Assembly: GCF_017348835.2 (NCBI RefSeq)
Contig: NZ_CP071375.1
Origin: Escherichia coli
GTDB lineage: Bacteria; Pseudomonadota; Gammaproteobacteria; Enterobacterales; Enterobacteriaceae
DNA: 64,000 nt
Direction: 5' to 3' (one strand)
How positions within the stretch are numbered: position 1 is the stretch's first letter; every line of letters begins with the position of its first letter. The notes under the pieces were generated by a model that made no database searches, was not told the origin of the DNA, and saw nothing but the letters and a program-made list of their open reading frames with translations. Both the position numbers and the translations under genes were made by a program. This document shows positions 14,980 to 53,986 of this stretch, one piece after another.

Positions 14980-15010
14980 TCACGCGATTACACCGCATTG
15001 CGGTATCAAC

Positions 15011-15087
15011 GCGCCCTTAGCTCAGTTGGATAGAGCAACGACCTTCTAAGTCGTGGGCCGCAGGTTCGAATCCTGCAGGGCGCGCCA
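15011..15087 (+). tRNA. argU: tRNA-Arg (anticodon UCU)
   Basis: 77-nt sequence gcgcccttagctcagttggatagagcaacgaccttctaagtcgtgggccgcaggttcgaatcctgcagggcgcgcca with TCT anticodon and GTTCGAATC T-loop. Confidence 0.95.
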
Positions 15088-15089
15088 TT
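15043..15089. repeat. attL core (3' part of argU)
   Basis: cttctaagtcgtgggccgcaggttcgaatcctgcagggcgcgcca(tt) is repeated exactly at 58302-58348. Confidence 0.8.
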
Positions 15090-15102
15090 ACAATTCAATC
15101 AG

Positions 15103-16265
15103 TTACGCCTTCTTTATATCCTCCATAATTCCACAGTGGGACATATTTGGGACATGATCACCAAAAATGTCGTCTATTTTCCTTGCATGCTCTGTCAAAT
15201 GATTAGGCGCAAGGTGAGCATACCTACGAACCATTTCTATGGACTCCCATCCGCCCATTTCCTGAAGCACAGATAATGGGACGCCTGACTGGATCAGCCA
15301 GCTTGCCCAGGTGTGTCTGAGGTCATGGAAACGGAAATCTTCAATTCCTGCACGACGACAAGCTGATAGCCATGATGTCTTGCTGTCGATGCGCATCTTC
15401 CTGACCGCAGGCGTTGATGTTCCATCTGCTCGCTTAGCCGCCTTGGTATGTACAAACACCCATTTGTGATGCTTGCCTATTTGATCACGCAACACTTTAC
15501 AGGCGGTATCGTTCAGCGCCACACCAATGGCGCGGTTTGATTTGCTCTCTTCTGGATTCACCCAGGCAACTCGTCGCTGCATGTCGATTTGTTGCCATTC
15601 CAGATTTATGATGTTCGACTTTCTCAGACCAGTTGCCAGCGCAAACTTGACGACAGATTTCAGTGGTTCGGGGCACTCATCAATAAGGCGTTTTGCTTCC
15701 TCCTTTTCCAGCCATCTGACTCGCTTGTTTCTGACCGCTGGTATCTTGATGACAGGCGCTTTTTCCAGCCACTTCCAGTCGCGTTCTGCAGCACGGAGAA
15801 TGGCCTTTATCATGGCAAGATGCTTTGCCTTTGTCTGAGTTGATACTGGCTTTGGTTCATAAACAGGCGGTTCTTTACCTTTCCTGATGGCGGCCTGAAC
15901 TTTCTGTTTCCATATTTCTTTCGTCTTTCTGTTATGCATTCTGCTTACAGCAGAGTAAATCTTTGCCTCCGAGATATCTTTAAGCCTTATACCCTCAAAA
16001 TGTTCAAGCCAGAACTCAATCCGGCTTTTATCTGAATCGAGAGATTTTTATCAGCTTTTTCCTCAAGCCATCTTAGGCAGGCCTCTTCAAAAGTGACATC
16101 AGGTAAATCCCCTAGCTTTTCTACTCGCCAGAGTTCTGCTTTTCGCTTGTCGTGCAACTCCTGAGCTTGCCGCTTGTCCTTTGTGCCAAGAGATTCCTTA
16201 ATTCGTTTCCCGCCCGGGAGCGAATACGAGGCATACCATATTTCATTTCTGCGGAAGAGTGACAT
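15103..16265 (-). pseudogene. int: tyrosine integrase disrupted by a 1-nt frameshift
   Basis: N-terminal ORF (16265 to 15987) and catalytic C-terminal ORF (15939 to 15103, with R..HxxR..Y motifs) are in different frames; C-terminal frame is open upstream to a TAA at 16048-16050; frames meet at T5 homopolymer 16045-16049. Confidence 0.8.
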
Positions 16266-16492
16266 TTTCTTTCCTCTGTTATGCCATCACCCGCGCTCAC
16301 CTGGACAGTATGCAGCGGAGACTGAAGCGCCGCAATGCAAGCTTGCCGTGTTGTGAGGTAAGGAGATTTTGGCTTGGTTGGATCTTTACGTGTTGCCTGT
16401 AGGCGGCCTGTTCGTATCCAGTTGGTGGCGGTTGGTCTGGATATCTTAAGAAACTGACAGGCCTCATCGAGTGTGAGGCTGTATGGCTCCAT
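16121..16492 (-). CDS. xis: excisionase-like HTH protein (AlpA/Xis family)
   Basis: Starts [31 protein letters not shown] (HTH); stop of upstream gene overlaps its ATG; 3' end overlaps the int start; true length uncertain. Confidence 0.5.
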
Positions 16493-16797
16493 TATTTCAC
16501 CTCTTGCTGTGTCATTGTTGAAAAATGGATACCAGCTCGTTGCTGCCAGACGATCCAACCGAGAGTCATATCCCATGCCATGTATTCGTTATCGCCGTTT
16601 TTTGCTCTCCGACGATCTACTAAGTCACCGAAACGCTTTTCCATGAATAATTCATAGGCTTCGCGTTCATCTGGCTCTACTTCCAGAGATACGAGTGCGA
16701 TTTCATAAGCACGGCGCTCAATATCGTCTCGAACCTCTAGGCTGCTGATTCGTTCTTTGATTTCTTTAATCAGTTCTTTATTGGTAAATGTGGTCAT
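16492..16797 (-). CDS. prophage protein, YfdT-like
   Basis: 101-aa ORF, translationally coupled in the leftward early operon; size and order match CPS-53 yfdT as recalled. Confidence 0.55.
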   Translation of the reverse strand: MTTFTNKELIKEIKERISSLEVRDDIERRAYEIALVSLEVEPDEREAYELFMEKRFGDLVDRRRAKNGDNEYMAWDMTLGWIVWQQRAGIHFSTMTQQEVK

Positions 16798-17159
16798 TAT
16801 GCTCCAGCCTCCGGTGCTTTTGGCATTACTGCCCAGTGAGTGATATTGACGTTTTCAAGGTCCCCGACCTGAAATGTCCACTGCCATTCTCCGGTTTCTT
16901 TTTGTCCCCAGTTGTACCAGAGAGAACGCCAGCCAATCAGCCAGCCTTCTCCATTAGCATCAAATAACAGAACACTTTCATTTGCTGGTGGCAGTTCAGC
17001 TGACACTGGTATTATTTTGTTTTCCAGTGCCGCACATTTAGCTTCAAGCGCGTCGAATTTACGTAACAGGTACTCAGCATTTGTTTCGTTCACTTTCAGA
17101 TCTCGCGGTACACATTTCCCGCGAAGAAACCCTTCCATTTCGAAAACATTCATGCGCAT
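16797..17159 (-). CDS. prophage protein, YfdS-like
   Basis: 120-aa ORF with Trp-rich C-terminus; ATGA overlap with neighbours. Confidence 0.55.
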   Translation of the reverse strand: MRMNVFEMEGFLRGKCVPRDLKVNETNAEYLLRKFDALEAKCAALENKIIPVSAELPPANESVLLFDANGEGWLIGWRSLWYNWGQKETGEWQWTFQVGDLENVNITHWAVMPKAPEAGA

Positions 17160-17686
17160 TTGCGTAACTCCGATAAATCGTTAAAACGTTCCATAAACAT
17201 CCCGTAGGCATGACCCGGTGCCAGTGGAATCACGTTGAACATCTCTGTTGCCGGGATGCCTTCCAGTACAGGCCAGAAAGAGCCATCATCAAGCCCGAGA
17301 TCGCGGCGTTCGGTTGCCAGCATGATGAGATCGGCATATTTCACGGGTGTACTCATAACTAGGGGTAACCCGTATTTCTCACGGATTACGGCGTCTATTT
17401 TTTCTTCCATTTGTTTATAGTCAGGAAGAAGGCGTTTCAGTGGTGCGGGAATGTCCTGGCAATACGCTTCTGTTGCATCATGCATTAACGCTTCAAAAGC
17501 AAATTCCTGCGGCACCAGCTGGCTGCAAAGAACCGCATGTTGGGCGACGCTGTAGAAGTGCGAAAGATGACCGGCAAAGCGACAGATATTTGAAAGGGAA
17601 ACCGCGATATCGTTAATATCGATGTCGTCTTTATTTATCTTGTCATAATAAAAATGCTTCCCGGAAAAAGTTTTAATAAATGACAT
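17150..17686 (-). CDS. HD-domain phosphohydrolase, YfdR-like 5'-deoxynucleotidase
   Basis: 178-aa product from ATG 17684-17686; HD-domain motifs (H..HD.E.Y..D). Confidence 0.7.
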   Translation of the reverse strand: MSFIKTFSGKHFYYDKINKDDIDINDIAVSLSNICRFAGHLSHFYSVAQHAVLCSQLVPQEFAFEALMHDATEAYCQDIPAPLKRLLPDYKQMEEKIDAVIREKYGLPLVMSTPVKYADLIMLATERRDLGLDDGSFWPVLEGIPATEMFNVIPLAPGHAYGMFMERFNDLSELRKCA

Positions 17687-17813
17687 TTTGTTCTCCACGT
17701 ATATGCACTGCACCGCGCTGAATTCTGGTAAAAGGAAGCCCTCACCATCCGGTGATTATTGAGTTAATTACGTTTCCATAAATGCCCCCGCAGGGGCATT
17801 TGCAGTAATGAAA

Positions 17814-18638
17814 TCAGGCGGTGAAAGTACCAATAAAGGTTTCTACTTTGCTGTCTTTGAATTTCTCAACAAGCAGATCACGAAATTCGTTAGCCATTTC
17901 TTCCTGCACCGCTTCCAGCTGAATAATGCGCAGAACCAGTACAGGACGATCGCCAGTGATAATGCTGAGGCGTAATTTAAACGGACGTTCTTTCAGGCCT
18001 TCAAACGGAACGCATTTAAATTCAAATGCCACTGGCATAATGTCTTTGGTCTTCGCTTCGACAGACTCCATCAGGGAGCGTTTGCCGCTGAAGTCATTAT
18101 CTTCAAAATCAGCGGTCTGGTTTGCTTCAATCGTGATTTTACGGACTGCCGCAGCCGCTTTTGTTGCCTGAATGGCGTCACCATTAGCATCAAAGCCCAC
18201 AAGGTAGTCGGCCCAGTCTTCGATCCATTCTGCCAGTGACTTCTGGGAGTTACGCTCGCCGTTAACAGACAACAGAGCAGAGAACGGTGCTGTCTTTTTC
18301 AGTTTGAGAGTGGCAGTGTTATCTGCGTGACCTGGCTCATCAATAGTACCCAGGTTAAGCACACTGACGGCACGCATATTATCGGCATCGATAAAGCAGC
18401 GGGTGCCTTCATCTGCAAGATCTTTAGAATAACGGGTAAAATCATCGATGCAGGCAGTGGAAAGTGCACCACGGAAACGGAAGCGATTTAAATTAAATTT
18501 TTCCAGATCATGAATGCGGAAATTCTCAGGCAATGCCACAGCATCGGCACCAATCTTACTGATAATTTCATTAACACCCTGAGCAGAAATAAGGGCATGG
18601 ATTTGATTAATTGCAGTTGCGTCTAAGTTCTGAGACAT
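17814..18638 (-). CDS. DUF2303-family prophage protein (YfdQ-like)
   Basis: 274-aa ORF; size and position match CPS-53 yfdQ as recalled. Confidence 0.6.
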
Positions 18639-18703
18639 AATAAGTCCTCACTATATAAAGATATTCAGTGATGAGATAAATAATCAGTTTATTACGAACG
18701 ATA

Positions 18704-19066
18704 TTAACGACCTGCTGCGCGGAGTTTTCCGTCAGGTTCACCGGCAAGAGTCAGTAATTGTCCCTGGTCTTCCTGCAGAATAGTCAGGCGACCACCGCGA
18801 TTGACATACATCGGCGTTTCGGTGGTGTCTTCTTCGGAAATTTTCCCGCGGTTAGTCGGGCGAATATATGAGAGTTTGTGTTTGATTTTCACACGGTTCT
18901 CATCAAATGGTTCGATTTCCAGGTTGAGTGAGACCTTACCTTTGGTTTTCGTGTTCATCACACCGGAAGCGACTTCACTGAGAACTGCGCCGATTTTGGT
19001 TTCAAATACGCCGCCGTCCAGCTCCCCGATAAATGCCTGCACATCAGTACTGCGTTCGCTAGCCAT
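18704..19066 (-). CDS. prophage protein, YfdP-like
   Basis: 120-aa product from ATG 19064-19066 (MASERSTDVQAFIGELDGG...); first gene of the leftward operon. Confidence 0.55.
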   Translation of the reverse strand: MASERSTDVQAFIGELDGGVFETKIGAVLSEVASGVMNTKTKGKVSLNLEIEPFDENRVKIKHKLSYIRPTNRGKISEEDTTETPMYVNRGGRLTILQEDQGQLLTLAGEPDGKLRAAGR

Positions 19067-19114
19067 TTTGCTGCTCCTCATCATATCGACCCTGCAAGGC
19101 CGATTAGTTTCTCC

Positions 19115-19247
19115 ACAAAACAGAGAAGAACACCTGTGGTGGCCGCCGCCCGGATGGATTGGGTTATGAGCCCGTCGTCCGGTGATGCTCTTCTCTGTTT
19201 TGTAAAAAGGACGGTACCAGCCGGAAGCAAGGGTACAAGCTGGTACC
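19115..19247. promoter_or_regulatory. structured leader: 15-bp perfect inverted repeat plus leftward hairpin/U-tract
   Basis: acaaaacagagaaga (19115-19129) and its exact reverse complement (19189-19203) with 59-nt spacer; stem ggtaccagc/gctggtacc (19213-19247) followed on the minus strand by TTTTT (19204-19208). Confidence 0.4.
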
Positions 19248-19468
19248 GCCAGGACTACACACAGCATAAAGTTGTGGTGCCGGGTGCCCTCCCGGTGCCT
19301 GGCGAAGGTTGCACACCAGGCGGGTGGGTATCCACAGAAGGTCGACTGTCAGCCTCAACCTTAACCCGCGTGCGCTGAGCCGCATTCACCACAACGCTAA
19401 GGATTCTCTCTGGTTGAAAATACTTAGCTGTTATGTGCCTGCTTTTAGCCACATCAGGCGAGGTGGAC

Positions 19469-19522
19469 CTGGTTATTCCCCAACAACAAGGATTCGGTTA
19501 ATCTGGATATCCCCAACAACAA
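19469..19522 (+). repeat. two tandem ~20-nt direct repeats just upstream of the 19537 ORF
   Basis: ctggttattccccaacaacaa (19469-19489) and ctggatatccccaacaacaa (19503-19522), period about 33 nt. Confidence 0.6.
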
Positions 19523-19536
19523 TAAGAGTATTCAAT

Positions 19537-20052
19537 GTGATCGCTGAATTAACGGCAGCAATGACGGCTATTCGTGAAACAGCCCAGATTGCAAAACTAA
19601 TGAACGAGGCAAAAACTCAAGCTGAAGTAAATGCGGCTATTGGTGAGCTGAACTCAAAGCTTGCGTCTATTCAGCGCGAATGCGTGTCTCTCGTTGAACT
19701 GGTGGGCTCTTATCAAGAAATAAATGCTTCTCTCAAAGCTAAAATTGCAGAATTCGAAAACTTTGAGGCTCAGACGGAAGGCTATATCCTTAACCAACTT
19801 GAGTCGGGTACTTTTGTATACTCGAAGGAGGTAATCGTGAACGGTGGCAGCATAACCATGCATCTTTGCCCAAAATGTTTTGGACAAAAGATAGTATCGA
19901 TACTTCAACCATTCCCGGTTAGCGAAGATGAGCTTTTTCATAAAAGCAGGTGCCTCCACTGTGAAAATAAGTTTCTGATGAATAAAAATCCGGATTACGT
20001 ATCGCCTCCATCCATTGAGGAGTTGTCCAGAAAACTTAACGGCAATCTGTAG
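19537..20052 (+). CDS. hypothetical protein: N-terminal coiled-coil, C-terminal CxxC...CxxC zinc ribbon
   Basis: ORF frame open from 19309; plausible starts GTG 19537 or ATG 19561; heptad-like N-terminus (IAKLMNEAKTQAEVNAAIGELNSKLASIQREC), C-terminal HLCPKCFGQK...SRCLHCENKF; own hairpin terminator downstream. Confidence 0.6.
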   Translation: MIAELTAAMTAIRETAQIAKLMNEAKTQAEVNAAIGELNSKLASIQRECVSLVELVGSYQEINASLKAKIAEFENFEAQTEGYILNQLESGTFVYSKEVIVNGGSITMHLCPKCFGQKIVSILQPFPVSEDELFHKSRCLHCENKFLMNKNPDYVSPPSIEELSRKLNGNL

Positions 20053-20090
20053 ATTACTACTGTTGTGGATATCCAGATTGTTAAAGAGCT

Positions 20091-20114
20091 AAGCGTCCTG
20101 TAGGGCGCTTTTTT
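20091..20114 (+). terminator. rho-independent terminator of the 19537-20052 gene
   Basis: Stem aagcgtcc/gggcgctt with tgta loop, then T6. Confidence 0.6.
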
Positions 20115-20280
20115 GTTGCTAACGAATCATCCTGGACTTCATATGCCCCAGGCGGCTACTTCGTGGGCGTCCTGCCTGTTCGTTTTTGACATTTACTGAC
20201 TGCTTACGACACATGCACCGTGTTGCAACCAGATTTTGTTGTAATCCTGTAGTTGGTCTGGAACAAAAGATAAAATTAAA

Positions 20281-20317
20281 TTGCGAGATATGCAAGCGAT
20301 ATTTGCGAGGTATGCAA
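20281..20317. promoter_or_regulatory. OL-like operator pair with candidate leftward promoter
   Basis: 15-mers TTGCGAGATATGCAA (20281-20295) and TTGCGAGGTATGCAA (20303-20317) share TTGC-N7-GCAA with sites in the cI-cro intergenic region; minus strand carries TTGCAT / 17 nt / TATCTT. Confidence 0.5.
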
Positions 20318-20330
20318 ATTTATAGGTAGT

Positions 20331-20351
20331 AAAAAGCCACCTTTCGGTGGC
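20331..20351 (-). terminator. rho-independent terminator after the cI-like gene
   Basis: Hairpin gccacc-tttc-ggtggc (20336-20351) followed on the minus strand by TTTTT (20331-20335). Confidence 0.6.
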
Positions 20352-20371
20352 CGATGGATGGGATATTGAGG

Positions 20372-21064
20372 TTAATTATGTCTCTTAAGGGTTTGCGACT
20401 GACTGATTAAGACCTTTCCAAAGACCATGAATCGGTGTTCGTTTTCGCTAGTAATTCCCCATTCACGGTAAATCTGGTTATCAGAAATCACCAGCAGTTT
20501 GTCAGGAATCATTTGAAGTCTTTTAACGTATATTTTGTCATCAAAACCAAAGACATATATACCATCACCATCAAACTGATTGATGCTGACATCAACGAAG
20601 ATGAGATCTCCTGGCTCAATGGTTGGACACATACTGTCCCCACGAACGTTGATAACTTTGATGTGATTGGCTGGTCGTCCGCCGAACATTGATACAGCAT
20701 TATCAGTTCTGTATTCGATGGCATGAATCACATCAATGACATCACCGCCCTGGATAAGGCCATTTCCCGCACTGGCACTGATATCCAGCATTTCAATACG
20801 GAACACATCCTTCACCTGCGCAACATCCTCATTATTACTGTTTTTATATACAGTATTACTTTTGTGGGCAGAGGTAAAGAGATCAGCAATATCAACACCT
20901 AAGCTCTTGGCAATATTACTCAGTGTTTGTTCGGTAAATTGTTTTTGCTTACCCGTTTCTAAGCGCGAGATGTTCGCCGCATCTACTCCTATTGCTTCAG
21001 CGAGATCGGCGATTTTCATGTTCTTCGCTTGGCGAAGTTGTCTGACTCGGTTTCCTATGTTCAT
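20372..21064 (-). CDS. cI: CI-like phage repressor (HTH_XRE plus S24 LexA-like peptidase domain)
   Basis: 230-aa; N-terminal HTH (RVRQLRQAKNMKIADLAEAIGVDAANISRLETGK), C-terminal GDSM serine and VKR lysine; divergent from a cro-like gene. Confidence 0.85.
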   Translation of the reverse strand: MNIGNRVRQLRQAKNMKIADLAEAIGVDAANISRLETGKQKQFTEQTLSNIAKSLGVDIADLFTSAHKSNTVYKNSNNEDVAQVKDVFRIEMLDISASAGNGLIQGGDVIDVIHAIEYRTDNAVSMFGGRPANHIKVINVRGDSMCPTIEPGDLIFVDVSINQFDGDGIYVFGFDDKIYVKRLQMIPDKLLVISDNQIYREWGITSENEHRFMVFGKVLISQSQTLKRHN

Positions 21065-21161
21065 GCGTTTATTACATTTCTTTATTGCGTGATAAGCAAA
21101 TCAACTTGCGCAAAATAATTGCGTGAAATAACATGCATAACGCGCAATATTTGGAGGGCAT
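21065..21161. promoter_or_regulatory. OR-like operator/promoter region between cI and cro
   Basis: Repeated TTGCG/CGCAA half-sites; 15-mers TTGCGTGATAAGCAA (21085-21099) and ATGCATAACGCGCAA (21133-21147); RBS ggaggg before cro. Confidence 0.55.
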
Positions 21162-21422
21162 ATGCAATCACCATTACGAAATGTGCGTAAGGCGCATGGT
21201 TTCACTTTGCAGCATGTTGCTGCGGGTGTTCAAGTCAATCCAGCGACGTTGAGTCGTATTGAGAGGCTGGAGCAGATTCCATCTATCGAGCTTGCAGAAC
21301 GTTTAGCCAATTTTTTTAAGGGTGAAGTCAGCGAAATGCAGATTCTTTATCCGGCACGTTTTCAATCTAGCCAAAACCAGAATGGGTTTAAACCACAGGA
21401 ACAGGAGGTGAACCGTGGGTAA
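21162..21422 (+). CDS. cro: Cro-like HTH regulator
   Basis: 86-aa HTH_XRE protein (FTLQHVAAGVQVNPATLSRIER) divergent from cI. Confidence 0.75.
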   Translation: MQSPLRNVRKAHGFTLQHVAAGVQVNPATLSRIERLEQIPSIELAERLANFFKGEVSEMQILYPARFQSSQNQNGFKPQEQEVNRG

Positions 21423-21966
21423 GCATCACTGGAAAGTAGAAAAACAGCCTGAGTGTTACGTGAAAGCTGTCAGAAAAACTATCGCAGCGTTGCCGGGGGG
21501 GTACGCTGAAGCTGCTGACTGGCTGGATGTAACAGAGAACGCATTATTTAACCGCCTTCGTGCCGATGGCGATCAGATTTTCCCGCTGGGATGGGCAATG
21601 ATTTTGCAACGTGCTGGTGGAACTCACTTCATTGCTGACGCTGTGGCGCAGTCTGCAAATGGCGTCTTTGTGTCTCTTCCTGATGTCGAGGATGTGGACA
21701 ACGCCGATATCAACCAACGCCTGCTGGAAGTCATTGAACAGATCGGCAGTTATTCAAAACAGATTCGTTCAGCAATTGAAGACGGTGTAGTGGAACCGCA
21801 TGAGAAGACAGCAATTAACGATGAGCTGTACCTCTCAATTTCGAAGCTGCAGGAGCATGCAGCACTGGTCTACAAAATCTTTTGCGTTTCAGAAAGTAGT
21901 GACGCCCGCGAGTGTGCAGCTCCGGGCGCCGTGGCGTGTCGTGACTGTGGAGAAACTAACGCATGA
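21415..21966 (+). CDS. phage regulatory protein, possibly CII (CP76)-like
   Basis: 183-aa ORF directly after cro with overlapping start; family assignment from position and recalled similarity only. Confidence 0.4.
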
Positions 21967-22301
21967 ACAGTTTAACAACACACTACCGTCGCTCGCAACT
22001 GATTGCGCTTCCTGTACCGGGTGGAAAAGCGAAGGTGGAGTATTGCTATGCAGTAAATGTACCAGGTGACAGGGAAATTGTAACCCACAGCTTTGCAGAG
22101 TGGGCTGTGGGTGATTTCAACCGGCAGAAGGAGACAGTCCTTTGCGACAAGTTAACCGCTGGTTCAAAGATCACTACGGAGTGCCCGTCAGAGTCATTCG
22201 TTGGGAGCCGGAAACACAACGGGTTATCTACCTCCGTGAAGGCTATGAGCATGAGTGCTTCAGCCCGCTCGAACAGTTTCGTCGTAAATTCAGGGAAATA
22301 G
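21963..22301 (+). CDS. hypothetical ORF in a region with three overlapping protein-like frames
   Basis: ATGA coupling to upstream gene; C-terminal half looks non-coding while frame +2 carries protein-like sequence with no ATG; see findings. Confidence 0.3.
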
Positions 22302-22310
22302 AGGTCGGTC

Positions 22311-23252
22311 ATGAGCACTAAATTAACCGGCTATGTATGGGATGGTTGCGCTGCGTCAGGCATGAAATTATCCAGCGTGGCAATTATGGCCCGCCTGGCT
22401 GATTTCAGTAATGACGAAGGTGTGTGCTGGCCATCAATTGAAACCATTGCCCGTCAGATTGGCGCGGGGATGAGTACCGTCAGAACGGCTATCGCACGGC
22501 TGGAAGCAGAAGGCTGGTTAACGCGTAAGGCGCGTCGCCAGGGTAACCGCAATGCGTCGAATGTTTATCAGCTTAACGTTGCGAAGCTTCAGGCAGCGGC
22601 ATTTTCTCAACTGTCAGATTCTGACCCGTCAAAATCTGACGCATCAAAATCTGACCCGTCAAAATTTGATGCGTCGAAATCTGGCAAAAAAGCGGGTTTT
22701 CACCCGTCAGAATCTGGCGGGGATCCGTCAGTAAAATCAAAACATGATCCGTCAGATAAAAAAACTTCTCGTCCGGACGCTTCGCAACCGGACACGCAGA
22801 AGGCTGAACAGGAGTTTTTAACTCGCCATCCTGATGCGGTTGTATTCAGCCCTAAAAAGCGCCAGTGGGGAACGCAGGATGATTTGACCTGCGCACAGTG
22901 GCTCTGGAAAAAAATCATCGCCCTGTACGAGCAGGCCGCCGAATGTGACGGCGAGGTGGTTCGTCCCAAAGAACCGAACTGGACAGCCTGGGCAAACGAA
23001 ATTCGCCTGATGTGTGTGCAGGATGGTCGTACTCACAAACAAATCTGCGAGATGTACAGCCGCGTCAGCCGCGATCCGTTCTGGTGCCGTAACGTGCTCA
23101 GCCCGTCGAAGCTGCGGGAAAAATGGGATGAGCTTTCCCTGCGCTTATCGCCGTCCGTCAGCACGTACACCGAAAAACGCGAAGACCCGTACTTCAAAGC
23201 CAGTTACGACAACGTGGACTACAGCCAGATCCCGGCAGGATTCAGGGGGTGA
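22311..23252 (+). CDS. phage replication initiator (O-like, N-terminal HTH)
   Basis: 313-aa; N-terminal winged-helix/HTH_36-like region (MSTVRTAIARLEAEGWL), internal iteron-encoded linker; follows cro/cII. Confidence 0.7.
   Translation: MSTKLTGYVWDGCAASGMKLSSVAIMARLADFSNDEGVCWPSIETIARQIGAGMSTVRTAIARLEAEGWLTRKARRQGNRNASNVYQLNVAKLQAAAFSQLSDSDPSKSDASKSDPSKFDASKSGKKAGFHPSESGGDPSVKSKHDPSDKKTSRPDASQPDTQKAEQEFLTRHPDAVVFSPKKRQWGTQDDLTCAQWLWKKIIALYEQAAECDGEVVRPKEPNWTAWANEIRLMCVQDGRTHKQICEMYSRVSRDPFWCRNVLSPSKLREKWDELSLRLSPSVSTYTEKREDPYFKASYDNVDYSQIPAGFRG
22606..22760. repeat. iteron-like direct repeats inside the replication gene (candidate ori)
   Basis: Four tandem 15-nt units tgacccgtcaaaatc / tgacgcatcaaaatc / tgacccgtcaaaatt / tgatgcgtcgaaatc (22622-22681), then degenerate ccgtcag units and an A-rich tract. 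Confidence 0.5.
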
Positions 23253-23743
23253 TCATGAGTCTTTTGAATGACGTTCAGAAATTCATTGAAGCCCATCCGG
23301 GCTGTACTTCCGGAGACATTGCGGATGCTTTTGCAGGTTACTCACGGCAGCGCGTTCTGCAGTCAGCAAGCAAGTTACGTCAGAGTGGGCGTGTGGCTCA
23401 CCGTTGTGAAGGAGATACACACAGACATTTCCCGCGCCTGACTGAGAGAGCGCAGGATCCGGAACCACAACCAGTTCGTGAAACCAGACCTGTGCGCAAT
23501 TTCTATGTCGGCACTAACGACCCGCGGGTGATTTTGTGCCTGACCCGCCAGGCGGAAGAACTGGAGTCCAGGGGCTTATACCGTCGTGCTGCAACGGTGT
23601 GGATGGCGGCATTCCGTGAAAGCCACTCCCAGCAAGAGCGAAACAATTTTCTTGCGCGTCGTGAGCGGTGTTTACGGAAAAGCAGCAAGCGCGCTGTATC
23701 GGGTGAAGAGTGGTATCTGTCAGGGAATTACGTGGGGGCTTAA
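23249..23743 (+). CDS. hypothetical prophage protein with PerC-like motif
   Basis: 164-aa ORF, ATGA-coupled to the replication gene; segment EELESRGLYRRAATVWMAAF resembles PerC-family activators (recalled). Confidence 0.4.
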   Translation: MIMSLLNDVQKFIEAHPGCTSGDIADAFAGYSRQRVLQSASKLRQSGRVAHRCEGDTHRHFPRLTERAQDPEPQPVRETRPVRNFYVGTNDPRVILCLTRQAEELESRGLYRRAATVWMAAFRESHSQQERNNFLARRERCLRKSSKRAVSGEEWYLSGNYVGA

Positions 23744-24069
23744 TGACGACGTTAACTCAATGCCAGCAGCAGGTGCTGGATATGCTGATTTCTTACCAGA
23801 AAGAACGTGGCTTCCCGCCAACCAATCAGGAGGTGGCTACCATGCTGGGATACCGTTCAGTGAATGCAGCGGTGGAGCATCTTCGCGCACTGGAGAAAAA
23901 AGGCGTCATCACGATAAAGCGTGGCGTGGCCCGGGGCATCACGCTTCATACCGCGGTGAAGGACGACGACAGCGAGGTGGCCGGGATTATCCGCGCACTG
24001 CTTGCTGGTGAGGAAAACGCCAGGCTGCGTGCAACCCACTGGTTACATGAGAGGGGCCTGAAAGTATGA
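23743..24069 (+). CDS. LexA N-terminal DNA-binding-domain-like protein (no peptidase domain)
   Basis: 108-aa product from ATG 23743; winged-helix similarity to LexA DBD (LTQCQQQVLDMLISYQKERGFPPTNQEVATMLGYRSVNAAVEHLRALEKKGVI). Confidence 0.55.
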   Translation: MTTLTQCQQQVLDMLISYQKERGFPPTNQEVATMLGYRSVNAAVEHLRALEKKGVITIKRGVARGITLHTAVKDDDSEVAGIIRALLAGEENARLRATHWLHERGLKV

Positions 24070-24455
24070 AGCTGATCCTGCCTTTTCCGCCCAGCGTGAA
24101 CACGTACTGGCGACACCCCAACAAAGGGGCGTTTGCTGGTAAGAGCCTGATAAGCGCGGCGGGGCGAAAATTCCAGAGCGCGGCGTGCGCAGCAATAGTT
24201 GAGCAGTTACGTCGTCTGCCGAAACCAACGTCGGCACCTGCTTCAGTGGAGATCGTGTTGTTTCCTCCGGATAACAGGATCCGCGATCTGGACAACTATA
24301 ACAAGGCGCTGTTTGACGCCCTGACCCACGCGGGGGTGTGGGAAGACGACAGTCAGGTGAAAAGAATGCTGGTGGAGTGGGGACCGGTTATCCCGGAAGG
24401 GAAGGTCGAGATCACTATCAGTAAGTACGAGAAAACGGCGGGTGCAGCTGCCTGA
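24066..24455 (+). CDS. rusA: RusA-family Holliday junction resolvase
   Basis: 129-aa; RusA motifs including DLDN and acidic catalytic residues. Confidence 0.8.
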   Translation: MKLILPFPPSVNTYWRHPNKGAFAGKSLISAAGRKFQSAACAAIVEQLRRLPKPTSAPASVEIVLFPPDNRIRDLDNYNKALFDALTHAGVWEDDSQVKRMLVEWGPVIPEGKVEITISKYEKTAGAAA

Positions 24456-29254: not shown

Positions 29255-29712
29255 ACAGAGTAACCGCGATTATCTCCGCTCTGGTTATCTGCATCATCGT
29301 CTGCCTGTCATGGGCTGTTAATCATTACCGTGATAACGCCATTACCTACAAAGCCCAGCGCGACAAAAATGCCAGAGAACTGAAGCTGGCGAACGCCACC
29401 ATTACTGACATGCAGCAGCGCCAGCGTGATGTTGCTGCACTGGATGAAAAATACACGAAGGAGTTAGCTAATGCGAAAGCTGAAAATGATGCTCTGCGTG
29501 ATGATGTTGCCGCTGGTCGTCGTCGGTTGCACATCAAAGCAGTCTGTCAGTCAGTGCGTGAAGCCACCACCGCCTCCGGCGTGGATAATGCAGCCTCCCC
29601 CCGACTGGCAGACACCGCTGAACGGGATTATTTCACCCTCAGAGAGAGGCTGATCACTATGCAAAAACAACTGGAAGGAACCCAGAAGTATATTAATGAG
29701 CAGTGCAGATAG
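29251..29712 (+). CDS. rzpD: spanin inner-membrane subunit (Rz)
   Basis: 153-aa from ATG 29251 overlapping the endolysin stop; N-terminal TM plus coiled-coil. Confidence 0.8.
29471..29653 (+). CDS. rzoD: spanin outer-membrane lipoprotein (Rz1) embedded in Rz in +1 frame
   Basis: 60-aa with lipobox (LVVVGC) and Pro-rich segment, wholly inside Rz. Confidence 0.75.
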
Positions 29713-29743
29713 AGCTGCCCATATCGATGGGCAACTCATGCAA

Positions 29744-31528: not shown

Positions 31529-35209
<3,681 letters not shown>

Positions 35210-53402: not shown

Positions 53403-53986
53403 TGGCATTCAGAATGAGTGAACAAGCACGGACCATAAAAATTTATAATCTGCTGGCCGGAACTAATGAATTTATTGGTGAAGGTGATGCATATATTCCG
53501 CCTCATACAGGTCTGCCAGCAAACAGTACCGATATTGCACCACCAGATATTCCTGCTGGCTTTGTGGCTGTTTTCAACAGTGATGAGGCATCGTGGCATC
53601 TCGTTGAAGACCATCTGGGTAAAACGGTTTATGACGTAGCGTCAGGGGACGAGTTATTTATTTCTGAACTCGGTCCGTTACCGGAAAATGTTACCTGGTT
53701 ATCGCCGGAAGGGGAGTTTCAGAAGTGGAACGGCACAGCCTGGGTGAAAGATGCAGAAGCAGAAAAACTGTTCCGGATCCGAGAGGCGGAAGAAATAAAA
53801 AACAGCCTGATGCAGGTAGCCAGTGAGCATATTGCGCCACTTCAGGATGCTGTAGATCTGGAAATCGCAACGGAGGAAGAAACCTCATTGTTGGAAGCCT
53901 GGAAAAAGTATCGGGTGTTGCTGAACCGTGTTGATACATCAACTGCACCTGATATTGAGTGGCCTACGAATCCTGTCAGGGAGTAA
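53402..53986 (+). CDS. tfa: tail fibre assembly protein (Tfa)
   Basis: 194-aa, start overlaps the stf stop. Confidence 0.85.

What the first reader, a model, noticed from the sequence alone, without database searches (positions are those of the whole stretch)
19067..20114. Uncharacterised coiled-coil/zinc-ribbon gene with a structured, repeat-bearing leader in the immunity-adjacent moron slot
A ~470 bp non-coding leader precedes a 163-172 aa ORF (19537/19561-20052) that converges on the cI-like repressor gene and has its own terminator (20091-20114). The leader carries a perfect 15-bp inverted repeat (19115-19129 / 19189-19203, 59-nt spacer), a 9-bp-stem hairpin with a minus-strand U-tract (19204-19247), and two tandem ~20-nt direct repeats with a CCCCAACAACAA core (19469-19489, 19503-19522) just upstream of the start codon. 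The protein has a heptad-rich N-terminus and a C-terminal CPKC...CLHC zinc ribbon and matches no family I recognise. This position is where lambdoid phages carry lysogen-expressed exclusion genes (rex, sieB), so it is a candidate novel superinfection-exclusion/abortive-infection or regulatory module, possibly with an RNA component.
Basis: partly seen in the sequence, partly recalled or inferred. Interest (0 to 1): 0.78.

Follow-up and report, generated by a model that had tools for sequence, protein, structure and literature searches.

The report
Rip1-family phage-defence gene at sieB locus
The unknown gene is a distant, so far unannotated relative of Rip1, a recently solved prophage protein that detects an invading phage's DNA-packaging ring, and it sits behind the classic lambda/P22 sieB promoter; most of its supposed 470-base leader belongs to other features on the opposite strand.

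Summary
They do not form one leader.

- **19068-19203, minus strand:** a long hairpin in the 5' UTR of yfdP.
- **19201-19425, minus strand:** an STnc100-like structured RNA with its own terminator. It scores below Rfam's threshold.
- **About 19436-19536:** this alone belongs to the ORF. It is homologous to the lambda/P22 sieB promoter and leader. The two CCCCAACAACAA repeats fall in the promoter spacer and at the predicted mRNA start.

The ORF (GTG 19537-20052, 171 aa) is a real, conserved protein. It belongs to PHROG 1244 together with phage HK446 Rip1 ("ring interacting pore 1", PDB 9oox, solved bound to T6 small terminase) and HK620 HkaP. Profile E is 2e-19, Foldseek probability is 1.0, and the four-cysteine zinc ribbon is invariant.

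The same leader and trailer carry at least four other unrelated cargo genes in other phages, and they are more conserved than the cargo.

The exclusion/abortive-infection guess is therefore supported by homology and position. The claims of a new family and a structured leader are not. This is a new member of a known kind.

Three things remain unexplained: the inverted repeat flanking the cargo, a 31-nt element upstream, and the repeated 13-mer.

The parts
19537..20052 (+). Rip1-family gene. 171 aa, GTG start. N-terminal helical hairpin followed by a C-terminal beta/zinc-ribbon domain.
   Evidence: ORF. Start confirmed by homologues. phrog_1244 at E 9e-60. PDB 9oox Rip1 at profile E 2.2e-19 and single-sequence E 2.7e-7. 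Foldseek probability 1.0. Invariant C111/C114/C139/C142, VY and SILQ.
19476..19504 (+). Predicted PsieB-type promoter. -35 TTCCCC at 19476-19481, 17-nt spacer, -10 TAATCT at 19499-19504. Predicted transcript start near 19510.
   Evidence: These columns align to the promoter (29690-29720) and sieB RNA start (29727) annotated in the P22 GenBank record. The -10 pattern TA...T is kept in lambda (TAAACT), HK446 (TAAAAT), Klebsiella (TAATCT) and Edwardsiella (TAGTCT). The start site in this phage is inferred, not measured.
19477..19489 (+). Direct repeat 1 (TCCCCAACAACAA). It overlaps the -35 hexamer and the promoter spacer.
   Evidence: Conserved in 6 genera. The lambda/P22/HK446 version is ACCCCTACAG.
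19510..19522 (+). Direct repeat 2 (TCCCCAACAACAA). It forms the first 13 nt of the predicted 5' UTR and is followed by the Shine-Dalgarno AAGAG at 19524-19528.
19436..19466 (.). Conserved 31-nt element GCCTG..CCAC..CAGGC..GTGG, about -45 to -75 from the predicted start. It also marks the mosaic junction between the left block and the cassette.
   Evidence: Shared with HK446 and HK620 and with lambda, P22 and many other phages. The stems are invariant and the loops vary, with one double change CCGC/GCGG. Function unknown.
19500..19525 (.). Left arm of the 26-nt inverted repeat that flanks the cargo (core AATCTGGATATCC).
   Evidence: I1, 85% complementary. The duplex scores z -2.8 to -5.2 in 6 loci. 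Present with three cargo types.
20054..20079 (.). Right arm of the inverted repeat (core GGATATCCAGATT), just before the terminator.
   Evidence: No inverted arrangement in 5,426 E. coli genomes.
20091..20116 (+). Intrinsic terminator of the cassette.
   Evidence: Conserved in Citrobacter, Salmonella, Klebsiella and Lelliottia loci, and after the different cargo of SfIV.
19201..19425 (-). STnc100-like structured RNA with its own terminator (stem about 19209-19221/19239-19251, then U5). This is not part of the ORF's leader.
   Evidence: RF02076 at 36.5 bits against a gathering score of 47, E 1.4e-5, full-length match. Found at the same place in SfV, SfIV, e14, phiES15 and ST64B. Consensus fold has 9 pairs changed on both sides, and the terminator stem is kept with different sequence.
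19068..19203 (-). Long hairpin (about 25-bp stem, 53-nt loop) in the 5' UTR of yfdP.
   Evidence: The block 19000-19251 is about 96% identical in mEp460, cdtI and Stx2c phages that differ further right.
18704..19066 (-). yfdP, the first gene of the leftward early operon (context).
20267..20317 (-). Predicted PL and OL. Operators TTGCGAGrTATGCAA at 20281-20295 and 20303-20317; -35 TTGCAT at 20295-20290; -10 TATCTT at 20272-20267. Leftward transcription from here runs antisense through the ORF.
   Evidence: Related sites lie in the cI-cro interval. The promoter hexamers were read by eye and are inferred.
20372..21064 (-). cI-like repressor (HTH plus S24 peptidase) (context).

Best explanation
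The ORF is a prophage-encoded anti-phage gene of the Rip1 family. It occupies the sieB locus of an SfV/e14-like lambdoid prophage.

**Shown here**
- It is homologous in sequence and fold to HK446 Rip1.
- It sits, like HK446 rip1 and HK620 hkaP, on the strand opposite the leftward early operon.
- It lies behind a leader homologous to the lambda/P22 sieB leader and ends at its own terminator.

**Inferred**
- In the lysogen it is transcribed from the weak PsieB-type promoter (TTCCCC-17-TAATCT), starting near 19510. The 5' UTR is short and CA-rich.
- When another phage infects, the protein recognises that phage's small-terminase ring. It assembles on the ring through its zinc-ribbon/beta domain into a multimer of about 12 subunits. 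The N-terminal helices form a pore, so the cell dies or stalls before progeny are made (abortive infection).
- When the resident prophage is induced, transcription from PL (about 20260, leftward) runs antisense through the gene. This probably silences it, in the way P22's sas antisense RNA neutralises sieB.

The rest of the supposed leader is unrelated: a minus-strand STnc100-like RNA and a hairpin in the yfdP 5' UTR.
For: **Homology to Rip1**
- A profile of 35 homologues matches PDB 9oox_L "ring interacting pore 1 (Rip1)" at E 2.2e-19 over residues 5-156.
- The single sequence matches at E 2.7e-7. BLASTP against HK446_037 gives 27% identity, E 4e-11.
- The AlphaFold model (pLDDT 89.7) finds only the 9oox chains in the PDB, with probability 1.0, TM 0.56/0.73 and 28% identity.
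- The window ORF, HK446 Rip1 and HK620 HkaP all fall in phrog_1244, at E 9e-60, 2e-53 and 8e-51.
- Four Cys, VY and SILQ are invariant across E. coli, Klebsiella, Edwardsiella, HK446, HK620 and Pseudomonas JBD30 members.

**What Rip1 does**
- The 9oox title reads "HK446 Rip1 in complex with the T6 small terminase".
- A preprint lists Rip1 among systems that sense the small terminase (10.64898/2026.04.30.721860).

**Locus**
- HK446 rip1 and HK620 hkaP lie between N and cIII, antisense to the PL operon.
- The window leader matches lambda 34394-34464, directly upstream of sieB.
- It aligns column for column with the annotated P22 sieB promoter and RNA start.

**Selection and spread**
- The family is conserved down to 40% identity in many Enterobacterales.
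- In 5 of 7 further loci the gene is again reverse-oriented next to the immunity region.
- The gene is in 644 of 5,426 complete E. coli genomes.
Against: - Identity to the one characterised member is only 27-28%, so the trigger and the oligomeric state could differ.
- No experiment on this subfamily was found, and the primary Rip1 paper is not in the searchable library. The mechanism rests on a PDB title, a meeting report and a one-line citation.
- PADLOC 2023 has no model for the family.
- The promoter and start site are transferred from P22 by alignment. The -35 is poor (3 of 6) and the consensus scan found no promoter in the region.
- No evidence here bears on antisense silencing, and no Esc-like internal product was examined.
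Confidence: 0.6

Rival explanations
1. The protein has the Rip1 fold but a different job. This divergent subfamily might sense another phage ring (portal, another oligomeric ring protein) or block packaging by sequestering its target, without forming a pore or killing the cell.
For: Identity to HK446 Rip1 is only 27-28%. The C-terminal region between the two CxxC pairs and the tail vary in length and sequence among subfamily members, as expected for a specificity surface. The Pseudomonas homologues sit between the terminase genes of Mu-like phages, which is a different context.
Against: The whole length aligns, including the helical N-terminal half, and the invariant residues are shared. The gene uses the same locus and leader as rip1 and hkaP.
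Confidence: 0.25
2. The mRNA is held inactive by hok-like fold-back pairing. The sequence just upstream of the Shine-Dalgarno (19500-19525) would pair with the 3' UTR (20054-20079) and keep a toxic protein untranslated until the mRNA is processed.
For: The 26-nt inverted repeat is 85% complementary. The duplex dG is -21 to -34 kcal/mol, z -2.8 to -5.2, in 6 loci, and the distal right arm varies while staying complementary (for example Klebsiella GGGG opposite CCCC).
Against: By alignment to the mapped P22 sieB start, transcription begins near 19510. The strongest 13 nt of the left arm would then be mostly upstream of the mRNA. The repeat is absent from lambda, P22, HK446, HK620, Edwardsiella and Arsenophonus members.
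Confidence: 0.08
3. One reading: the whole 470-nt stretch is one structured leader or riboregulator that controls the downstream ORF.
For: The hairpins and repeats are real.
Against: The stretch breaks into blocks with separate histories. 19000-19251 travels with yfdP. About 19250-19466 travels with the STnc100-like RNA. 19429-20089 travels with the ORF, including into an O157:H7 Rac-like prophage that lacks the other two blocks. The terminator and the Rfam match are on the minus strand. The proximal leader has no excess folding energy.
Confidence: 0.03
4. The inverted repeats make the cargo an invertible (phase-variable) DNA segment.
For: Inverted repeats flank the gene exactly.
Against: A query built for the inverted junction found no genome with 80% or more coverage among 5,426 complete E. 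coli genomes, although 1,121 genomes carry the parts. No recombinase gene is adjacent.
Confidence: 0.02

Closest known systems
Rip1 ("ring interacting pore 1") of Escherichia phage HK446, PDB 9oox
   Same: Same PHROG (1244). The alignment covers the full length. The fold is the same: a helical hairpin followed by a beta/zinc-ribbon domain. The four Cys, VY and SILQ are invariant. The gene is a reverse-oriented moron behind a sieB-type leader in a lambdoid prophage.
   Different: Identity is only 27-28%. The window protein lacks Rip1's roughly 10 extra N-terminal residues and has a longer, different C-terminal tail. HK446 rip1 abuts N and has neither the flanking inverted repeat nor its own terminator. 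Activity, trigger and oligomer are untested for this subfamily.
sieB locus of lambda and P22 (SieB/Esc and the sas antisense RNA)
   Same: Same genomic slot and a homologous promoter/leader, including the 31-nt upstream element, the duplicated CCCC-ACA motif and the -10. The orientation is antisense to PL. The general role is prophage-expressed abortive exclusion (PMC10461980, PMC12197685).
   Different: The protein is unrelated to SieB: no BLASTP alignment and hhalign probability 0.2%. Whether an Esc-like product or a sas-like RNA exists here is unknown.
HK620 HkaP ("putative superinfection exclusion protein")
   Same: Same PHROG, slot and leader.
   Different: 28% identity. HkaP's function was assigned by position only.
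STnc100 / PasD prophage sRNAs (Rfam RF02076), for the minus-strand element at 19201-19425
   Same: Full-length match to the model. The closing helix UUGUGGUG/CACCACAA, the internal hairpins and a 3' terminator are all present.
   Different: It scores below Rfam's gathering score (36.5 against 47). It lies beside the leftward early operon rather than next to Q, where PasD is reported to lie. It overlaps the annotated "ymfH" ORF in e14.

Membership tests
Rip1 family (PHROG 1244) | Significant sequence similarity to HK446 Rip1 over most of its length. | tested here: met
   Profile E 2.2e-19 covering residues 5-156. Single sequence E 2.7e-7. BLASTP E 4e-11. Shared phrog_1244.
Rip1 family (PHROG 1244) | Same fold as the solved Rip1 chain. 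| tested here: met
   Foldseek against the PDB finds only 9oox_L and 9oox_M below E 0.001, with probability 1.0, TMq 0.56, TMt 0.73 and rmsd 3.5. The model has pLDDT 89.7.
Rip1 family (PHROG 1244) | CxxC...CxxC zinc ribbon and the VY / SILQ motifs. | tested here: met
   These are invariant in the 9-sequence cross-subfamily alignment and in the 35-sequence alignment.
Rip1 family (PHROG 1244) | Prophage-encoded stand-alone gene, reverse-oriented to the lytic operon. | tested here: met
Rip1 family (PHROG 1244) | Protects the lysogen against other phages. | not testable with these tools
   Needs plaque assays. For HK446 Rip1 this was stated only in PMC12908700.
Rip1 family (PHROG 1244) | Binds the small-terminase ring as a multimer of about 12 subunits and forms a pore. 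| not testable with these tools
   Known for HK446 Rip1 with T6 TerS from the PDB title and a meeting report. No multimer modelling tool is available here.
Lambdoid sieB locus (PsieB leader) | Upstream DNA homologous to the lambda/P22 sieB promoter and leader, directly before the gene. | tested here: met
   Lambda 34394-34464 matches at 76% over 71 nt, just upstream of sieB at 34482. Alignments with P22 and lambda.
Lambdoid sieB locus (PsieB leader) | Transcript starts at the position mapped in P22. | not testable with these tools
   The position is transferred by alignment to about 19510. It needs 5'-end mapping.
Lambdoid sieB locus (PsieB leader) | The encoded protein is SieB. | tested here: not met
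   No BLASTP alignment. hhalign probability 0.2%.
Lambdoid sieB locus (PsieB leader) | A sas-type antisense RNA and an Esc-type internal product that spare the resident phage. | not tested
   Only the geometry is seen: the predicted PL transcript is antisense to the gene.
STnc100 (Rfam RF02076), for 19201-19425 (-) | Reaches the family's gathering score. | tested here: not met
   36.5 bits against 47 in the window. 29-41 bits in five related phages.
STnc100 (Rfam RF02076), for 19201-19425 (-) | Consensus helices supported by comparative data. | tested here: inconclusive
   Six sequences give 62 predicted pairs, 9 of them with changes on both sides, and the terminator stem is replaced but kept. 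However, the covariation term is +1.12 and the core is nearly invariant.
Invertible DNA switch | Both orientations of the segment occur between the inverted repeats. | tested here: not met
   0 of 5,426 E. coli genomes carry the inverted junction.

The most novel reading that the evidence does not exclude
The sieB-type leader and trailer may form a conserved, portable chassis. It would consist of the 31-nt upstream element, a promoter with the duplicated 13-mer, the cargo-flanking inverted repeat and the terminator. Lambdoid phages would use it to express interchangeable abortive-infection toxins (SieB, Rip1 family, ECs1072 family, the phrog_6315 cassette) in the lysogen. They would switch any of them off during their own lytic growth, for instance because the antisense PL transcript folds through the inverted repeat into an RNase III substrate or sas-like RNA. 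The cargo families of unknown function found behind this leader would then be new defence genes.
Probability: 0.2. Interest if true: 0.6.

Novelty: new member of a known kind. Interest (0 to 1): 0.4.

Why it matters
- **Annotation.** The gene is labelled "hypothetical protein" in every source checked, yet it is in 644 of 5,426 complete E. coli genomes, including O157:H7 prophages, and in Salmonella, Klebsiella, Citrobacter and others. Naming it a Rip1-family defence gene is a useful annotation transfer. It also gives a 27%-identical second subfamily for testing how specificity for terminase rings is encoded.
- **Gene discovery.** The shared sieB-type leader can be searched as a DNA motif. It finds other cargo genes of unknown function in the same slot that may be defence genes.
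- **Method.** A gap between divergent genes can hold several independent elements on both strands and should not be read as one leader.

Tried and rejected
- **Pfam, NCBIfam and PADLOC on the ORF.** These gave only weak coiled-coil or chance hits. PADLOC 2023 predates Rip1.
- **Invertible switch.** Rejected.
- **Structured proximal leader.** RNA folding of 19432-19560 gave z +1.2, and the homologous leaders gave inconsistent folds.
- **Long-range 5'-3' UTR pairing.** The complementarity is real, but the P22-derived start site leaves the core of the left arm outside the mRNA. This idea was downgraded.
- **Promoter scan.** The consensus scan found no promoter in 18900-21300 on either strand, not even PR or PL, so it is too strict to be informative here.
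- **Promoter for the STnc100-like RNA.** Searched by eye upstream of 19425; nothing convincing was found.
- **Primary Rip1 paper.** Searches for "ring interacting pore", Rip1 plus terminase, and HK446 did not find it in the library. The Ranade and Poteete papers are not held.
- **SieB homology of the protein.** None.
- **PL-proximal conserved block 20118-20187.** It showed no excess folding energy (z +0.2) and no Rfam match.
Full report
**Setting.** The window matches an E. coli chromosome (strain PE164) at 100% identity over 19000-20400 and is taken to correspond across 15000-24400. It carries an SfV/e14-like lambdoid prophage integrated beside a tRNA-Arg gene. From left to right the region holds a frameshifted integrase, an excisionase, yfdT, yfdS, yfdR, yfdQ and yfdP (all minus strand). 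Then come the region in question, a cI-like repressor (minus), and cro and ymfL (plus).

All the listed features are present: the ORF at 19537-20052, its terminator at 20091-20110, the perfect 15-bp inverted repeat, the hairpin with a minus-strand U tract, the two CCCCAACAACAA repeats and the CPKC...CLHC motif. The inverted repeat and the hairpin are far more stable than shuffled sequence when folded on the minus strand (z -4.7 and -4.8).

**The 470-bp "leader" is three modules with separate histories.** Comparison with phage and E. coli records shows sharp mosaic joints.

- **Block 19000-19251.** This holds the 5' end of yfdP, the long hairpin and the terminator hairpin. It is about 96% identical in mEp460, cdtI and Stx2c phages, which diverge to the right of 19251.
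- **Block about 19077-19466.** This is shared with SfV, SfII, SfIV and the K-12 e14 element, where it is annotated as the gene "ymfH".
- **Block 19429-20089.** This holds the proximal leader, the ORF and the trailer. It occurs at 94% identity in an O157:H7 Rac-type prophage next to racR, without the other two blocks.

**The minus-strand features.** The long hairpin (19068-19203, about 25 bp of stem) lies in the 5' UTR of yfdP.

- Rfam's permissive search places a full-length but sub-threshold match to the prophage sRNA STnc100 at 19425-19201 on the minus strand (36.5 bits against a gathering score of 47, E 1.4e-5).
- Equivalent sub-threshold matches lie at the same place in SfV, SfIV, e14, phiES15 and ST64B.
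- An alignment of the six gives a multi-branched consensus. Its closing helix is invariant, and the sequence of its terminator stem is replaced in phiES15 and ST64B while the pairing is kept.
- One-base indels among window, SfV and e14 fall inside the "ymfH" reading frame. PGAP calls that frame frameshifted in two genomes. It is probably not a protein gene.
- The canonical PasD sRNAs, which are related to STnc100, are reported next to the Q antiterminator gene (Zhu, Shabalina and Storz preprint). This copy therefore sits in a different context. Nothing found here ties this RNA to the ORF.

**The ORF is a Rip1-family protein.**

- The protein has more than 120 homologues across Enterobacterales, down to 40% identity, all called hypothetical. 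They begin MIAEL, which fixes the GTG at 19537 as the start.
- Pfam, NCBIfam and PADLOC give nothing meaningful.
- PHROGs places it in phrog_1244 at E 9e-60.
- A profile of 35 members matches one solved structure, 9oox chain L, "ring interacting pore 1 (Rip1)", at E 2.2e-19 over residues 5-156. The single sequence matches at E 2.7e-7.
- The AlphaFold model (pLDDT 89.7; two long helices, then a beta domain) finds only the 9oox chains in the PDB: probability 1.0, TM 0.56/0.73, 28% identity. The entry is [quoted passage not shown].
- HK446 gp37 and HK620 HkaP fall in the same PHROG.
- The four cysteines, a VY pair and a SILQ motif are invariant from E. coli to Pseudomonas phage JBD30.

**What is known of Rip1.** The evidence I could reach is thin. 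A meeting report calls it a prophage-encoded protein from the Maxwell laboratory that blocks incoming phage replication. In that report, 12 Rip1 monomers cap an 11-subunit terminase complex, suggesting a pore-based defence (PMC12908700). A preprint lists it among systems that sense the small terminase. The primary paper is not in the library.

**The slot is the sieB locus, and the proximal leader is the sieB promoter region.**

- In HK446 and HK620 the gene lies between N and cIII on the strand opposite PL.
- The 105 nt before the window ORF align with the sequence before HK446 rip1 and HK620 hkaP, although the proteins are only 27% identical.
- They also match lambda 34394-34464, directly upstream of sieB at 34482.
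- The P22 GenBank record annotates the sieB promoter and the sieB RNA start. In the alignment the promoter corresponds to window TTCCCC (19476-19481), a 17-nt spacer and TAATCT (19499-19504). The RNA start falls near 19510.
- The first CCCCAACAACAA repeat therefore lies in the -35/spacer region. The second is the first 13 nt of a roughly 27-nt 5' UTR that ends in AAGAG and GTG. Lambda, P22 and HK446 carry the same duplication as ACCCCTACAG.
- This proximal leader is not thermodynamically structured (z +1.2).

**A conserved chassis with changing cargo.**

- Across Citrobacter, Klebsiella and Lelliottia the leader is 84-88% identical to the window, while the coding DNA is 66-69% identical and the protein 45-62%.
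- SfIV keeps the window's leader up to 19520 and its trailer from 20073, but carries a different ORF of the ECs1072 family.
Of these, 53 carry Rip1-like genes (33 distinct sequences) and 48 carry the ECs1072-family gene. In most of the other 19 the leader precedes a small proline-rich ORF followed by a phrog_6315 membrane protein.
- With lambda and P22 SieB, that makes at least four unrelated cargos behind one leader.
Its core, AATCTGGATATCC / GGATATCCAGATT, recurs with all three cargo types, in degenerate form with the ECs1072 cargo.
- It is not an inversion switch: no E. coli genome among 5,426 carries the inverted junction.
- It is unlikely to act in the sense mRNA, because the core of the left arm lies upstream of the inferred start. 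Both arms are present in the antisense PL transcript.
- A 31-nt element further upstream (19436-19466, GCCTG..CCAC..CAGGC..GTGG) is nearly invariant in its paired parts and variable in its loops. It shows one double change (CCGC/GCGG) and also occurs in phages that lack the rest of the leader.
- I could not assign a function to the inverted repeat, the 31-nt element or the duplicated 13-mer.

**Likely mechanism.** *Shown:* homology, fold, locus, leader homology and terminator. *Inferred:*

- Lysogenic expression from the PsieB-type promoter.
- Recognition of an invading phage's small-terminase ring by the C-terminal domain, multimer assembly, pore formation by the helical N-terminal half, and abortive infection.
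- Silencing during induction. The operators TTGC-N7-GCAA at 20281-20317 recur in the cI-cro interval and mark a leftward PL near 20260. Its transcript is antisense to the gene, the geometry used by P22, whose sas antisense RNA switches sieB translation to the protective Esc product (Ranade and Poteete 1993, as summarised in PMC12197685 and bioRxiv 10.1101/787010). Whether anything similar happens here is untested.

**Verdict.** The gene is not a new family, and the "structured leader" combines unrelated elements. The finding is a new, divergent and widespread member of a known kind: 644 of 5,426 complete E. coli genomes carry it, always labelled hypothetical. The most interesting residue is the conserved sieB-type chassis and its unexplained repeats.

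Noticed in passing
window 19201-19425 (-); also L002 3202-3417, L003 3125-3346, L005 2703-2925, L010 2529-2647, L011 2469-2654: An STnc100-like structured RNA with its own terminator lies at the head of the leftward early operon in SfV-, e14-, ST64B- and phiES15-type phages. It always scores below Rfam's gathering score (29-41 bits against 47). Related PasD sRNAs are reported next to Q, so this is a different context. In E. coli K-12 it underlies the annotated gene ymfH, whose frame is broken by 1-nt indels among close relatives, so ymfH is probably not a protein gene.
   Followed up: partly
window 19068-19203 (-): A hairpin with a stem of about 25 bp (dG -57 kcal/mol, z -4.7) sits in the 5' UTR of yfdP, immediately after the sRNA-like terminator. 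Its stem includes that terminator's U tract. It looks like an RNase III-type substrate and is inherited together with yfdP.
   Followed up: partly
window 19436-19466: A 31-nt element, GCCTG-N7-CCAC-N2-CAGGC-N3-GTGG, has interleaved complementary segments in a pseudoknot-like arrangement. The paired parts are nearly invariant and the loops vary. It is found upstream of sieB-slot genes in lambda, P22, HK446 and HK620. It also occurs in phages without that leader (SfV, e14, phiES15, and Hafnia and Providencia phages). It coincides with a mosaic junction.
   Followed up: partly
window 20118-20187: This block, just downstream of the predicted PL on the minus strand, is 86-97% conserved in SfV, SfIV, e14 and another E. 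coli prophage, whatever their immunity type or slot cargo. It has no Rfam match and no excess folding energy. No N-like gene is apparent between PL and the early-left genes, although at least one terminator lies in the way.
   Followed up: partly
window 20281-20317 and 21085-21147: Operator-like sites TTGC-N7-GCAA occur as two perfect copies left of cI and as two weaker copies between cI and cro. They define the immunity specificity of this prophage.
   Followed up: partly
IMG/VR loci such as L046 (1380-2000), L050, L061, L069: The same leader precedes a third cargo. It consists of a 30-40 codon proline-rich ORF (MSYDYEERHMPPFKRPEPPPKPDDSD), a 150-aa protein with two hydrophobic segments (phrog_6315, unknown function) and another small proline-rich ORF. 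This may be an uncharacterised exclusion cassette.
   Followed up: partly
L005 3036-3470 (SfIV_36) and 48 IMG/VR loci: The ECs1072-family protein (NF033230, phrog_5286, 144 aa, unknown function) uses the identical leader and trailer as the Rip1-like gene. Its position makes it a candidate defence gene.
   Followed up: no
L022 2501-2995 (JBD30_030); DMS3, D3112 orf25, MP38: Rip1-family homologues in Pseudomonas Mu-like phages are reverse-oriented inserts between the genes flanking the terminase large subunit. This places them next to the kind of protein Rip1 is said to sense.
   Followed up: no
window 15011-15084, 53745-53943, 59007-59123: Rfam hits at gathering threshold: a tRNA at the prophage border, annotated tRNA-Arg in the matching genome; an IS009 element; and an ALIL frameshift pseudoknot, which is an IS3-family signal. 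The integrase next to the tRNA is annotated as frameshifted in the matching genome, so the prophage may be unable to excise.
   Followed up: no
L002 6054-6242 (SfV), L010 5069-5145 (ST64B): IsrK and C4 antisense RNA matches above gathering score lie to the right of the immunity region in the related phages SfV and ST64B.
   Followed up: no
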